DNA from: Eledone cirrhosa | Lineage: Eukaryota | Assembly: GCA_964016885.1 (NCBI GenBank) | Contig: OZ024743.1 | Location: 215,450,001 to 215,514,000 of the forward strand | Length of the DNA: 64,000 nt | Direction of reading: 5' to 3' | Part shown: piece after piece, positions 1,261-56,836 of the stretch | Numbering within the stretch: the first letter of the stretch is position 1 | Layout: each line of letters begins with the position of its first letter | Notes under the pieces: generated by a model | Databases searched by the model: none | The model's input: only the letters and a program-made list of their open reading frames with translations | What the model was told of the DNA's origin: nothing | Program-made: the position numbers and the translations under genes

Positions 1261-1470
1261 GTGAGAAAAACCACAGACCCTCCATCTCAACGCTACTTTT
1301 GAAAAGCAGAAAAACTGCGAAACCGTTAAAGGAACCAAATAAACATATATATTTTTTTAAAAATAAGACTCCAGTTGCATTGTCGATTTCATCTTTTTTT
1401 CCTTATACTTTCGCTCGTGTCGGACACCTCGGTTATTCTTCATTTTGTAAAAAAACCTCACTTTCTAATA
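1261..1470 (+). mobile_element. Short HHR-bearing non-autonomous element (family A); other copies at 25617-25830 and ~40330-40530
   Basis: Same sequence 'gtgagaaaaaccacagaccctccat...ggacacctcggttatt...ctcactttctaata' at three loci, each ending in (TA)n. Confidence 0.75.
1295..1332 (+). ncRNA. Type I hammerhead ribozyme, U3:A8 core variant (family A)
   Basis: ctt-TTGAAAA-gcag aaaaa ctgc-GAAA-ccgt-TA-aag. Confidence 0.6.
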
Positions 1471-1596
1471 TATATATATCTATCTATATATATAATATAT
1501 ATTATACATCTATCTATATATATATATATATAATATATATTATATATCTATCTACCTATATATATATAATATATATTATATATCTATCTATCTATA

Positions 1597-4500
1597 AGAA
1601 CAACAAACCAACCTGCAAGCACATTCCCAAACAACCTCACTCCACCTAAAACCACTGCAAAAACACCCACAAACACAACAGCTCCCCAAAACATACCCCT
1701 TCCAAATAACACAGACACCACAACGTACGAGACCCCCACATCATCACCAAGTGACGATGAGGGAGAGCCTCTCCGTTTGAAAAGAAATAAGAAAATACAC
1801 CACAAGTACAACAAAAACAACAAACATCACTACAAACATACAACCAACCACCAACACAAACAACTCAAACATTACAAACAATAAACCCCCCGTCCCGAAA
1901 ACAAAACCACGACATCACTCCAAACACAAACACCTACAACAAAACCAAAGCTCCCACAAGAACAAAAGACAAAAACCACTGCAACACAACAAGAACATTA
2001 CACATACATAAACAGTAAAAACAAAACTTTAATGGAGGACATCTGCAACGACCCTTCGGTGAAAACCGAATGGAAAAAGTTTTCGACTGTGTAGACAAAC
2101 CTAATTTAAAGATGATTAGGGTCCATACGGACACCTATAAGTTTTTAAAGGAAAACTTTCCTAAGGACGTGGGTAATCCTTGTGTTAAATCCATTAACCG
2201 CGTTCTTTTAAAACCTTTCCCCACCCTCACCCAGACACCCCCATCCCACCAAACATCTCCGTCCCCACCCCGCCGGAATCCACTACCCACCCAGACAACC
2301 CCTCTAACACCCCATGGAAACCGTGCGGCTTGATCCCCGGGAGACGTAGAGGTGAGTGTTTTCTCCTCTTCTTTTAACTTTTCAGAACCAACATGGCCAA
2401 TATAATAGTTGGATGTATGAATGCACGCGGTCTGGGGATACCCTGGTAACAGGGCAAACTCTTAAACATCCTCAGGTCGCACAGTATGGATGTAGTAGCT
2501 ATTTGCGAGTCCAGGATCCACAGCAAGCGACAGCTGGCCCCCCACCTTCGATGACTTTGAAATCTACGCATCTCTCTGTCGGCCGAGGGGTGGGGGTGGG
2601 GTTGCCGTTTTGCTGCGGAATCACCTGGGCTCGTAACACAGACGGTACATATCGACCCGGAGGATCGACTGGTGGTTTCGAGACGTTGACGGTAGTGAAG
2701 ATGGAGCCTTCAGGCTGGTGGCCGCATATGCCCCATCCGGGACACCGCGGCCAGACTTCTTCAAAGGTCTAGAGACTTTCTGGGAACGGCCCGCTCCTTG
2801 CTTTTAATGGGGAACTGGAATGGAATCATAGATGCACGTTGGAACTATGTGGAAGCATGTCCCGATAAAGGGGGTGTAACTGCCTCAAACAGTTAATCGG
2901 CCGATGTGACCTGGCCGATAGATATCGACTAGATTTTCCGACTGTGCCACAGTGGACGTGGACTAATCGAGCGGAACATCTAGATCGTACCTAGATAGGG
3001 TTCTAGTAAGAAATAAGGATAGGGACATGTTAAGCTGTCCACAAATGTTCATGGTTGCCTATTCAGATCACGAACTAGTGACCTGCATGGTCAATCTTCA
3101 TAGAACCCATAGAAAAGGACCCGGCTACTGGAAGCTGAACTTGTCGTTACCGACATGCAAAGCCTACAGTAGACGGATTAGCACTTTAGTTAAACAACAC
3201 TTGACAGGGGCCATTGTCAACAACAGATAGTGGTACACTCTCAAGAGGGCAGTTAGATTAGACTCGTTTGACTTTAGTAAAGAATTATCGTTAGATAGAA
3301 ATAGAACCGAGAAGGAACTGGTAGATAAAGTAGAAGAGGCAATGAGAAGTGGCAACCTAGCCAGCGTGCTAGCAACGAGAATGGCCTTGGACCAGTTCTT
3401 CGACGCAAAGCACGAGGGCTGCGTTCTCAGAAGCAAAATACGTGCTCTGGGAAACGAGGGAGCCAAAGCTGTTAGCTGGGTCCGAGTGACGGAGGCAAAA
3501 AGTGGCAACAAGTCCACGATTCAGTATTTGAAGGACCGACACGGACGCGTGATACGTGAACCGAAGCAGATGTGTGCGGCCTTTCAGTGGCACCTGCTCA
3601 ACTGTTCGGGCAGGGCGGCGCGCGGGGAGGGGCTATGGATTTCGGTCCATACCTCGACAGCCTACGCCAACTCTCGGACAGCGAGGCAAAGTTCTGTAAA
3701 AGGCCGATTTCAACCTCTGAGATAGGGGACGCCCTGAGTTAATGAGCCAAACGCCAAACTCCAGATCTCAGCAGTCTACCCTACGAACTTTACGTAGCAA
3801 TGGCAGACTTATTCTCCGGTCTCCTGGAAGCGGTCTACTGCAACTGGCAACATAACGGGAGAATTCCCAGTTCTGTGACCGGGGGCGTAGTCACACTAGT
3901 CAGGAAGGACGAGAATAAAGGGGATGACATAGGCAACTTCCGGCCCATAACTCTGCTAAACACAGATTTACAGATTTTGGCCAAGGTGTTGGCAAAGAGG
4001 CTGGCGCTTGTCGTCGAGGAACTGGTGGGAAAAGCGCAGACATGCGCAATCCCGACCAGGTCCATACACGACAACCTCCACCTCATGCGATTCATCATAG
4101 AGAGGGTAGGGTGTAAACCCGGCTTAGGTGGGGCTCTGATCAACTTGGATCAGTCTAAGGCTTTCAATAGGGTTGACCATCGTTACCTGGATGCGGTGCT
4201 CGAGGCGGCAGGCTTCGCACCCATGTTCAGGGACTGGATTTTGCAATGCACAACAGCAACATCTGCTCAAGGGTCAAGGTGAACGGCTACCACTCGGAGC
4301 CGTCCATATCACACGATCCATTCGACAGGGATGTCCTCTTTCCTCCCTTCTGTACGTACTGACTCCCTAGCCACTACTGCGGAAGTTGGAGCTATTGCAG
4401 GGTATCCCTCTGAAACCGGGACTGCGGAAAACGGTGTCGGCCTACGCCGACGACATGACGGTTATGGTGTCTAGCGCCTCGCAAATCGAGGAAGTCGGCA

Positions 4501-54713: not shown

Positions 54714-54799
54714 TGTCTGAGGAACCTGCGAGTCTAGAGTCAGGTCGATCCACACACAGATCGTACCTCGAGCTGTTCGGCGGGGAAACAATTGTAACA
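54714..54799 (+). ncRNA. Canonical-core HHR within a cluster of HHR-like motifs (54678-54914)
   Basis: tgt-CTGAGGA-a cctgc...gcggg-GAAA-caattg-TA-aca. Confidence 0.7.
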
Positions 54800-56334
54800 C
54801 ACAATAAATTGAGTTCCGATGCATCACTGGTTTTTCGTTTTCCATTCTATAATAATCTGCTCTGTAGGAGCATAGAATGCTCAACCGGCATACCGCCTAT
54901 GGAAGTATCTTAGCTACCATTACACACACACACACACACACACACACACACACAACCACACACACACACACACACAACCACACACACAACCACACACACA
55001 CATATATATATATATATATATATATATATATATATATATATATATATATATAAAAATATGAGGCCATATACATTTGGTTTTGGTGTATAAATATACGTAA
55101 TGAAATACATCCATTTGGTTGTTTCGAAATAAATGTATCCTATCTAAATATATATGATAGTGACCTTTCTTAATTGCAGTGGAACATTCTGATAAGTATT
55201 TTAAATGTTACCTTCATTTAGTGGAGCCGATGAAATTTTAATCAAAACGAATGCTTAGACCACACATAAATATAACAGTTATTGCTTCTATTTTCATCGT
55301 CCATGTTATTCAGTGTTGCAGTGTAATAAGTTATGATTCCTGATATTTGTGATGTTGTCCATAACAAGAGAGATGATATCATCTATATATTTTCAATTTG
55401 ATCATGAATATACTTTTTTTCAGATTCATTGCTCAGATAATGACAGGCATGATGTCTTTTTGCGACGGCTACCGGCTGTGAAATAGATCTATAATTTTGT
55501 TCAAATTCAATTTCATCGTTAGGGAAAGATACCGGTCCGGATCGCGGGATGGATAAACTATAAATTTGCCGTTTGTCCCGGGTCTCAGTTGTTGTGAACA
55601 AAAAATATCAGATGCAATGGGAGGTGGTGGCTTGCGGCACGATCGCAAAATCACCTGAATTGGATGGTTATTGAAACTGTTGTAAAGGAATGCGTACTAA
55701 TTAATACTGCTCTGAATTTAAGAGGACTGTATAAAATTGCCAGCCCGTACAACATAAGATAAATATATCTGCTGTTATGACGTATGCCTAATAAAATGAA
55801 GAAATAAGAAAGACAGAAAGATATATTGGAGGGAGAGAAGTAGGATGCGTCCGTTCGACACCAAACTAGAAAGGACAAGACGTGTCACAGAGAAGGGGGC
55901 AGCAAACGAAAGTGACACGCCAGAGTGATGGGGATGAGAAGGGTGAAACTAGATTCTGGTTTAGGAGCTGAAGACGTCAGATGATGTTTGAGTGATCTTC
56001 TCTTGTTCATTTTCATTGTTTTCTCCATTTTCTTCCTTTGCTCATCTCTTATCACTTCTGCGAGGCAACAAACTTCTTGTCGTTGATTCCTGTCTTTTGA
56101 GGTAAACTTTTATCTAACGCGGTCATAGACAGCATTTTGCAGTTTTGGCAGCCGTCCCTTCATTGAGTTGTTCTCATTATTATATAAATTCTAATGCACT
56201 TTTGCCTCAACTCAATCTCCGAGAAGACTTTATACACACACACACACACACACACACACACACACACACACACACACACACACATATATATATATATATA
56301 TATATATATATATATATATATATATATATATATA

Positions 56335-56836
56335 TTTCGTTTCTGAATTTGTTTAGCAAGATTCTTTATCTGAAACCGTTTGTTGAATCCGATATTGTTA
56401 TGCTTTGGGAGGGTCATATTGCCAATAAGAAACACACGCACAAGTTGCTTTCACTCCAATTTATTATAAATTAAATTTATAAATTTAAGAATTTATAAAT
56501 TTCCGGTTGGTTGGTTGGTTCCATAGCCGGACGGTTGTTCATATAATGTCAAAAGTCATTCGTCACACATTCTATGACCTCTTCAGTGACTGGGGATTAT
56601 TTTTTTTGTTTTGTGCCTCTCCATTGTTATGTCCTACGCCATCTTGTTTTTCTGACCTCTGAAGAGGTCACAGAATGTTTAACGAAAGAACTTTGACAAT
56701 ATATGAACAACCGTCCGGTTATGGAACCAACTAACCAACCGGAAATTTATAAATTTAATTTATAATAAATTGGAGTGAAAGCAACTGGTGCGTTTGTTTC
56801 TTATTGGCAAAATGACCCTCCGAAAGCATAACAATA
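56335..56836. mobile_element. Family D fold-back element (arms ~56393-56590 / 56659-56836) with degenerate HHRs
   Basis: Homologous to 22355-22620. 'CTGAAGAggtcacagaatgtttaacGAAAgaacTTtgac' at ~56658-56697. Confidence 0.8.

What the first reader, a model, noticed from the sequence alone, without database searches (positions are those of the whole stretch)
1261..56836. An ecosystem of short HHR-bearing fold-back elements inserted in (TA)n, probably mobilised by PLEs
Seen: many sequence-unrelated non-coding elements (1.3/25.6/40.3, 7.4, 14.7/21.0, 15.8/22.4/56.4, 16.6, 20.0, 30.6, 31.4/41.8 and 44.2 kb) share an architecture. They have (TA)n flanks and an HHR fold, and most have an inverted copy of their own terminus. 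The coding PLE copies (9.4-12.9, 17.9-19.8 and 26.3-30.3 kb) show the same inverted-terminus structure. Established: PLEs have pseudo-LTRs with HHRs and form tandem or inverted insertions. Inference: these are solo pLTRs or non-autonomous partners of several co-resident TA-targeting PLE families. About 20 HHR folds in 64 kb would imply a very large genome-wide ribozyme load.
Basis: partly seen in the sequence, partly recalled or inferred. Interest (0 to 1): 0.75.

Follow-up and report, generated by a model that had tools for sequence, protein, structure and literature searches.

The report
Mirror-image stubs of Penelope retrotransposons
Most of the short hairpin-shaped pieces between the TA repeats are cut-down ends of protein-coding Penelope-like jumping genes, a known kind of element, and their shapes suggest that each was likely copied from both sides of a DNA break on RNA that its predicted self-cutting motif had not cut.

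Summary
Fifteen hammerhead (HHR) folds pass a scan (0.37 expected), about 14 more are variant or decayed, and 9 of the 15 listed short elements have two inverted arms.

The reading needs correcting. Eight of the nine short families are not separate non-autonomous partners. Elsewhere in the genome each runs unbroken into a Penelope-like (PLE) ORF: five Hydra-type, two Neptune-like, one Penelope/Poseidon-like. Only the 311-bp tandem at 30.6 kb is a true ORF-less retrozyme. MITEs are refuted.

Measured here:
- 137 of 148 unbiased 3' ends abut (TA)n.
- 98 of 103 classifiable two-arm insertions have one tailed and one untailed end.
- 0 of 164 inner ends fall at the HHR cut site.
- In two families inner ends pile up about 30 nt below a TATA-like box.
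- A 0.99-Mb sample extrapolates to about 290,000 HHR folds (210,000-370,000).

Best model (inferred): both DNA ends prime reverse transcription on uncut RNA at the two internal start sites shown in vitro for an anole PLE. The architecture is published, and this scan has reported the same thing on other DNA of this genome.

The parts
608..1468 (+). Family F1 (Neptune-like PLE): 3' UTR with 150-bp repeats, pLTR and tail; HHR at 1299 with U3-A8 core and mutated loop III; single arm
6771..6912 (.). Family A two-arm stub (tailed arm 6771-6849 -, untailed arm 6849-6912 +); partial HHR
7253..8161 (.). Family F7 (Hydra-type) two-arm insertion; tail 7253-7389; HHRs with about 120-nt stem II at 7594(-) and 7954(+)
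8268..9353 (+).
9430..12883 (-). Family A full-length Hydra-type PLE: open frame 12288-10147 (713 aa stop to stop), upstream pLTR 12321-12618+, HHR at 9584 (U4A core), 30-40-bp inverted untailed arm 12845-12883
13683..14838 (+). Family F14 (Hydra-type) 3' UTR plus pLTR, single arm; HHR at 14751 (U4C core)
15789..16258 (-). Family F22 (Neptune-like) single arm; HHR mutated
16556..17833 (.). Family F16 (Penelope/Poseidon-like) two-arm insertion including the ORF's last codons; HHR-shaped motif with conserved non-canonical core at about 16.8(-) and 17.54(+)
17892..19846 (.). Family A two-arm insertion with truncated ORF 19689-18896(-); HHR at 17961(-)
19962..20339 (.). Family F20 (Hydra-type, 821-aa parent frame in L207) two-arm stub
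20922..21303 (.). Family F14 two-arm stub; HHR at 21017(-)
22177..25249 (.). Tandem triplication of a ~1.09-kb block: 44-bp family A stub, (TA)n, F22 two-arm insertion (22352-23092, 23444-24184, 24510-25249); HHRs at 22557, 23649, 24715 (-)
25615..25831 (.). F1 two-arm stub; intact HHR at 25721(+); untailed arm starts at the -70 hot-spot
26202..30298 (.). Family P26 Hydra-type PLE with broken ORF (-) and 1.1-kb inverted arm; HHRs at 26391(-) and 30192(+)
30645..31227 (+). Non-LTR retrozyme, 1.9 units of 311 bp; canonical minimal HHRs at 30746 and 31057
31426..32335 (.). Family F31 (Hydra-type) two-arm insertion; U3-A8 HHR-like motifs with long stem II
40325..40530 (+). F1 single-arm stub starting at -72; HHR damaged by a deletion
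41815..42015 (.). F31 two-arm stub starting inside the HHR (-30/-3); half ribozyme only
42208..42640 (-). 3' end of another high-copy family with HHR at 42555; parent ORF not traced
42630..44492 (.). Family F44 (Hydra-type): inverted coding arm 43894-42630(-) and 3' arm 43949-44492(+), non-overlapping on the parent; HHR at 44251 (U4C, long stem II)
52160..54920 (+). Hydra-type remnant (EN 53076-53609) with HHR at 54717; left boundary approximate
56336..56833 (.). F22 two-arm stub (tailed arm 56336-56649 -, untailed arm 56659-56833 +); HHRs mutated

Best explanation
The short elements are partial copies of at least ten protein-coding Penelope-like families that insert into (TA)n, and each two-armed copy likely forms when both ends of the cut TA tract prime reverse transcription separately on uncut element RNA. 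Shown: eight short families continue into PLE ORFs; each family has two fixed 3' ends 42-161 nt apart; two-arm insertions nearly always use one end of each kind; inner junctions vary; the HHR lies on the ORF strand 29-260 nt before the nearer end; inner ends avoid the HHR cut site. Inferred: the GIY-YIG endonuclease cuts both strands in (TA)n. One DNA end starts at the inner RT start site and the other at the outer (tail) site. Each cDNA runs until it falls off or reaches the RNA 5' end, and the two are joined head to head. In families F1 and F31 most stubs stop about 30 nt below a TATA-like box, so they are likely run-off copies to the transcription start, primed in the upstream pLTR. The HHR therefore likely does not make the template's 5' end. 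The 311-bp unit is an ORF-less retrozyme that carries the same insertion marks and is likely moved in trans by a PLE.
For: ORF linkage. Hydra motifs (RWR-like, SDKT, CxCx5C, CxxC-E, N-CxH) in the 713-, 830- and 821-aa frames (definition in PMC8557442 section 11). Two fixed ends per family. TA at 137 of 148 intact 3' ends in the systematic sample, against 16 of 114 and 8 of 106 ends of a SINE-like control and 7.3% of random positions. One tailed plus one untailed end in 98 of 103 classifiable pairs (119 found, 16 unclassifiable; 51 expected if independent, p 7e-24). In 45 of 102 such pairs the untailed arm reaches more than 10 nt further 5', so neither arm contains the other (28 of 81 without F20, counted by hand). 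Arms are closer to each other than to other copies in 67 of 83 pairs. 0 of 164 true inner boundaries lie within -2..+3 of the cut; F1 has 14 of 24 at -74..-63 with TATAAA 31 nt upstream; F31 has 39 of 54 at -32..-21 with TATTTAA 29 nt upstream. In vitro, an anole PLE cuts and extends both strands, starts RT at two internal sites that define the tail, and inserts without HHR cleavage (PMC11167929).
Against: No RNA or biochemical data were obtained; HHR activity and transcription starts are predicted only. 36 of 102 pairs are symmetric within 10 nt and 21 have the tailed arm longer; both also fit fold-back synthesis. Five pairs are tailed on both ends. Many pairs come from loci picked by my queries, and one is a local duplicate. 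F20 starts at -53/-125 may be alignment breaks. Only 2 of 10 families show a clear TATA-linked peak, and the 12-nt peak window was chosen after the fact. Arm similarity could partly be later gene conversion. F7, F16 and F31 HHRs fail my descriptor in all copies (0 of 26, 36 and 39), and the F31 minimum-energy fold is not the hammerhead fold. No parent PLE was matched to the retrozyme.
Confidence: 0.72

Rival explanations
1. Same PLE origin, but the second arm arises by self-priming or fold-back (on the first cDNA, or on an antisense RNA as proposed for rotifer PLEs), and the one-sided tail is trimmed by the endonuclease when the intermediate is resolved.
For: Published proposals (PMC3846280 discussion passage; PMC8557442 section 6 passage). 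36 of 102 pairs are near-symmetric, and arms share rare variants in 36 of 83 pairs.
Against: In 45 of 102 pairs (28 of 81 without F20) neither arm contains the other. The tail matches two RT start sites in vitro.
Confidence: 0.17
2. The short elements are self-propagating non-autonomous families (pLTR-derived SINEs or retrozyme monomers) transcribed from their own pLTR promoter and copied in trans.
For: True for the 311-bp unit (1,365 exact hits of one 39-mer, 310-bp period, no ORF). F1 and F31 have a preferred 5' boundary, and stubs greatly outnumber long copies.
Against: Every other family is continuous with an ORF. Junction coordinates differ (108 distinct among 119 pairs), so no fold-back master copy is spreading. 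A peak at the start site is equally expected from full-length RNA primed in its 5' pLTR.
Confidence: 0.08
3. TA-TSD MITEs with fixed terminal inverted repeats, with HHR-like folds arising by chance.
For: Palindromic look and TA flanks; some F20 and F7 copies are near-symmetric.
Against: Ends are asymmetric (tail on one side), junctions vary, many copies are single-armed, sequences continue into RT/GIY-YIG ORFs, and HHRs are 28-fold above shuffles and on the ORF strand.
Confidence: 0.02

Closest known systems
Hydra clade of C-terminal EN+ PLEs (Craig et al. 2021, PMC8557442; section 11, passages and supplement hits read; includes Hydra-1_Obim, (TA)n)
   Same: Single ORF, RWK-like and DKT motifs, CxCx5C linker, CxxC/CxH around E and N, HHR in the pLTR, (TA)n insertion, inverted truncated copy, one-sided tail.
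   Different: At least seven co-resident families here. Several exceed 3 kb because of long 3' UTRs (F7 about 4.4 kb). Tails are 77-161 nt rather than 30-40. Many HHR cores are non-canonical (U4A, U4C, U3-A8) or have 50-120-nt stem II.
Minimal type I HHRs of metazoan PLEs (Cervera and de la Pena 2014, PMC4209133; parts 1-2 of 4 read)
   Same: Mostly single motifs in truncated PLEs, pairs on opposite strands 100-700 bp apart, U3-A8 variant, extra base before stem II, palindromic loop III (59 of 98 hits).
   Different: Estimated number here is about 290,000, against about 9,000 (Xenopus), 4,000 (coelacanth) and 3,300 (Schistosoma) there; the descriptors differ. U4A and A6U family-wide cores were not seen in the passages read.
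Poseidon PAc of Anolis (Frangieh et al. 2024, PMC11167929; parts 1-2 of 4 read)
   Same: Two internal RT start sites equal the tail; AT-rich target; both strands cut and extended; HHR cleavage not needed.
   Different: In the parts read it does not quantify two-arm genomic insertions or link one start site to each DNA end. Here the inner ends coincide with short AT-alternating motifs in the element, whereas PAc starts at non-homologous sites.
Metazoan non-LTR retrozymes (Cervera and de la Pena 2020, PMC7229834, passages; Li et al. 2026 preprint 10.64898/2026.07.22.740005, part 1 of 5)
   Same: The 311-bp unit: 170-400-nt tandem with a type I HHR in each unit, no ORF.
   Different: Arrays are often head-to-head, sit in (TA)n, and have two fixed ends about 36 nt apart, which are PLE insertion marks. 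The word 'inverted' does not occur in PMC7229834.
Tc1/mariner-derived (Stowaway-like) MITEs (recalled)
   Same: Short, palindromic, TA-flanked, high copy.
   Different: No fixed TIRs or fixed length here; the elements are continuous with RT ORFs.

Membership tests
EN+ Penelope-like elements | RT plus GIY-YIG in one ORF upstream of the terminus | tested here: met
   Motifs in parent loci of eight short families and in window copies. Pfam gave no hit for seven window PLE frames, so this rests on motifs and tblastn.
EN+ Penelope-like elements | Partial-tandem pLTR upstream of the ORF | tested here: met
   Window 12321-12618; L107, L153, L200, L204, L207. Not looked for in F7, F22 or F44.
EN+ Penelope-like elements | Inverted 5'-truncated copy and one-sided tail | tested here: met
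   98 of 103 pairs
EN+ Penelope-like elements | HHR motif in the pLTR on the sense strand | tested here: met
   Ten families; F16 core non-canonical, F31 fold weak
Hydra clade | RWK-like motif, DKT, CxCx5C linker, CxxC and CxH around E and N | tested here: met
   All or most motifs in A, F7 and F20; subsets in the broken frames of F14, F31, F44 and P26
Hydra clade | Insertion into (TA)n | tested here: met
   137 of 148 ends, all families pooled
Hydra clade | Phylogenetic placement with published Hydra RTs | not tested
   Published sequences were seen only as supplement text; no tree was built
Neptune clade (F1, F22) | CX2-5CxxC linker before GIY-YIG | tested here: met
   CGRSNCGTC and CIDKKCITC. 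Clade name is provisional; no tree.
Penelope/Poseidon clade (F16) | YVDD RT, YIG endonuclease, no Zn-finger linker | tested here: inconclusive
   Motifs present, neither linker pattern found; no tree
Non-LTR retrozyme (311-bp unit) | Short ORF-less tandem with a type I HHR in each unit | tested here: met
Non-LTR retrozyme (311-bp unit) | Expressed, self-cleaving, circular RNA | not testable with these tools
   No RNA run was listed
MITE | Fixed TIRs and fixed length | tested here: not met
   108 distinct junctions among 119 pairs; asymmetric ends
Active hammerhead ribozyme | Self-cleavage | not testable with these tools
   Structure only

The most novel reading that the evidence does not exclude
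Across three PLE clades in one genome, every two-armed insertion is the footprint of a dimeric enzyme that primes each end of a double-strand cut at a different fixed site of an uncleaved, capped RNA and copies to its transcription start. The hammerhead is therefore not the maker of the template and may serve as an RNA-pairing or control element. This process has left about 290,000 hammerhead folds, more than any count in the papers read, including whole families with U4A, U4C, U3-A8 and A6U cores.
Probability: 0.5. Interest if true: 0.62.

Novelty: new member of a known kind. Interest (0 to 1): 0.42.

Why it matters
How PLEs make their inverted structures, and what their hammerheads do, are stated open questions (PMC8557442, PMC11167929). 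A genome with hundreds of thousands of stubs gives the statistics: the one-tail rule, the absence of ends at the cut site, and start-site peaks are precise predictions for an existing in vitro system. In practice these stubs would be mis-annotated as MITEs or miRNA hairpins, and Rfam misses all their HHRs. The elements themselves are of a known kind.

Tried and rejected
- Rfam scan: no HHR hit; only sub-threshold miRNA matches to palindromes and microsatellites.
- Canonical-core descriptor: 5 hits only, so it was widened.
- Pfam: nothing for the PLE frames.
- Idea that HHR cleavage sets the 5' end of the copied RNA, prompted by the 22.9-kb arm starting at +9: rejected, 0 of 164.
- DNA search with the 311-bp unit returned no candidates although the window itself holds it; a pattern search was used instead.
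- No parent PLE for the retrozyme among ten reference ends; its relatives in sampled loci are other tandem units.
- The 40.9/41.4-kb direct repeat is high copy and TA-ended but shows only half a core, and no ORF lies within 1.5 kb in 14 loci; left unassigned.
- One of 100 planned sample regions did not exist.
- Literature searches found no HHR census or two-end priming analysis for a cephalopod; a 2026 Octopus vulgaris repeat annotation has no occurrence of 'hammerhead' or 'ribozyme'. Subscription papers and preprint supplements were not searchable.
- No protein tree, covariance model or structure prediction was made.
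Full report
SETTING. The window is AT-rich animal DNA (GC 33.8%) at G000:C4:215450001-215514000 of a 3.0-Gb assembly. Earlier notes of this scan call it likely octopus. I did not test that; a Hydra-clade PLE is published from Octopus bimaculoides. Family labels (A, F1, F7 and so on) are mine. Positions written -n or +n are relative to the predicted HHR cut.

1. OBSERVATION. Self-BLAST with TA tracts masked recovers the listed repeats and inverted arms, and the arm map places them. 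Rfam finds no HHR and a canonical descriptor finds five. By eye the cores were often variants, so I allowed U4A, U4C, U3-A8, an extra base before stem II and long stem II. This gave 15 hits against 0.37 in shuffles. About 14 more motifs are family-typical but missed, or decayed. Nine of the 15 listed short elements are two-armed. All 13 independent two-arm insertions in the window (the triplicate counted once) have one tailed and one untailed end.

2. WHAT THE SHORT FAMILIES ARE. I searched the genome with each family (only 40 candidates are scored per search) and read upstream. F22 continues into a GIY-YIG frame. F1 continues into a Neptune-like RT/EN. F7 continues into an 830-aa Hydra-type frame through a 4.4-kb 3' UTR. 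F14, F31 and F44 continue into Hydra-type frames, F20 into an 821-aa frame, and F16 into a YVDD-type frame. The stretch from ORF end to terminus was fully covered in one further locus for F7 and F20 and in two or more for the rest; lower coverage in other loci reflects truncation. The Hydra motifs defined in PMC8557442 section 11 are present. That paper already reports (TA)n insertion for almost all Hydra families. The exception is the 311-bp unit: one 39-mer has 1,365 exact hits with 310-bp spacing and no ORF link. Of five inspected arrays outside the window, all are head-to-head and TA-flanked where an end is visible, and ends fall near unit positions 260-272 or 298. It is a retrozyme with PLE marks.

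3. UNBIASED SAMPLE. I took 99 evenly spaced 10-kb regions from the large contigs (small scaffolds were not sampled). They hold 98 HHR hits against 3.5 in shuffles; 81 of 98 have (TA)n within 350 nt downstream against 24% of control positions. One third of the hits have non-canonical cores. The extrapolation is 286,000 folds (bootstrap 210,000-368,000). This is a lower bound for folds, because F7, F16 and F31 never pass and 19-43% of the copies of the other families fail. It is not a count of active ribozymes. Published counts I read are 126,247 in axolotl (PMC7229834) and about 9,000 in Xenopus (PMC4209133), made with other descriptors. TA abuts 137 of 148 intact 3' ends, against 16 of 114 and 8 of 106 for a SINE-like control.

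4. MECHANISM. Each family has two fixed 3' ends. Of 119 head-to-head pairs, 103 could be classed: 98 have one end of each kind, 5 have two tails and none has two short ends (51 mixed pairs expected). Choosing loci by one arm does not set the other arm's type. Inner junctions differ in 108 of 119 pairs, which rules out fixed TIRs. Among 102 mixed pairs (a different de-duplication) the untailed arm reaches further 5' in 45, the tailed arm in 21, and 36 are within 10 nt. Without F20, whose starts may be alignment breaks, the counts are 28, 20 and 33. Where the untailed arm is the longer one, neither arm could have been copied from the other, so both were copied from RNA (inference). Arms resemble each other more than other copies in 67 of 83 pairs, which points to one source locus or to later conversion. 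One RNA and two RNAs cannot be told apart here. This fits the anole PLE in vitro: both strands cut and extended, two internal RT starts equal to the tail, and a predicted dimer (PMC11167929). The published rival is self-priming (PMC3846280), which the symmetric pairs do not exclude.

5. THE HAMMERHEAD. None of 164 true inner boundaries lies at the cut, and 266 of 351 unbiased copies keep sequence upstream of it. The templates were therefore mostly uncut, as in vitro. F1 boundaries peak at -74..-63 (14 of 24; 9 of 14 in the random sample) with TATAAA 31 nt upstream. F31 boundaries peak at -32..-21 (39 of 54; 21 of 25) with TATTTAA 29 nt upstream, inside stem II. I read these peaks as transcription starts (inferred). 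Family A has a weaker peak (7 of 38) and the other families show none. F16 keeps a CAGTTGA core in most of 36 copies, which may be inactive. U3-A8 and U4C are documented natural variants (PMC3088659 passages; PMC4209133). A paper on dimer-cleaving PLE hammerhead variants (Lunse et al. 2017) is recalled and was not read.

6. EARLIER NOTES. The ORF linkage, census and retrozyme call were made before I opened the scan's notes. The one-long-one-short rule, twin priming, the promoter inside the ribozyme and a bulged hairpin beside the short end were leads from those notes, which I then tested. The first three hold here. The hairpin was found by script in 6 of 7 Hydra-type families and 0 of 3 others. 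One note's claim that inner ends mark the ribozyme cut is not seen in my ten families.

7. VERDICT. The feature is real, and it is mostly the known truncated and inverted PLE architecture: Cervera and de la Pena 2014 already describe single and opposite-strand minimal HHRs as truncated PLEs. What is added is quantitative: the one-tail rule, the arm geometry, the start-site peaks and the size of the HHR load. Novelty: new members of a known kind. Interest 0.42. Supplements of the preprint were not visible and might contain invertebrate retrozyme counts.

Noticed in passing
window 42208-44492: The two F44 arms do not overlap on the parent (the inverted arm stops at parent position 1276, the forward arm starts at 1295), like LINE-1 twin priming on one RNA. 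The outer end of the inverted arm joins the 5' end of another family's stub through a 3-base overlap.
   Followed up: partly
window 20948-20975: A 28-bp piece identical to window 16918-16945 (family F16, 4 kb away) replaces about 19 bases inside an F14 arm. It was seen in no other locus; possibly a locally templated repair.
   Followed up: partly
window 22177-25249: Tandem triplication of a ~1.09-kb block with 97-98% identity, including the TA tract; a local duplication or an assembly expansion.
   Followed up: partly
window 40865-41557; L246-L259: High-copy TA-ended repeat (2,577 candidates) present as a direct pair, with CTGATGAG but no downstream GAAA and no ORF within 1.5 kb; unassigned.
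   Followed up: partly
L262, L293, L307, L316: A second, older tandem retrozyme-like family 76-79% identical to part of the 311-bp unit, with a U3-A8 core.
   Followed up: partly
window 51049-51953 and 59820-59939: Further palindromic elements (206-bp arms at 82%; a 120-bp hairpin) with no HHR hit; not tested genome-wide.
   Followed up: no
window 6357-6737, 40637-40782, 45455-45637, 59639-59819: A SINE-like 180-bp repeat, five copies, used as the control for TA flanks.
   Followed up: partly
window 3231-5821, 35319-38529, 61788-63119: Broken non-LTR retrotransposon remnants with RVT_1 hits (and a weak zf-RVT hit in the first); unrelated to the finding.
   Followed up: no
L191, L195 (family F7): A very young family (99-100% identity among the top 40 hits) with an open 830-aa frame and a 4.4-kb microsatellite-rich 3' UTR, often as multi-kb inverted pairs.
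   Followed up: partly
   Followed up: no
window 12550-12811, 18045-18330, 608-1056: 140-150-bp tandem repeats inside the pLTR or UTR of families A and F1.
   Followed up: no
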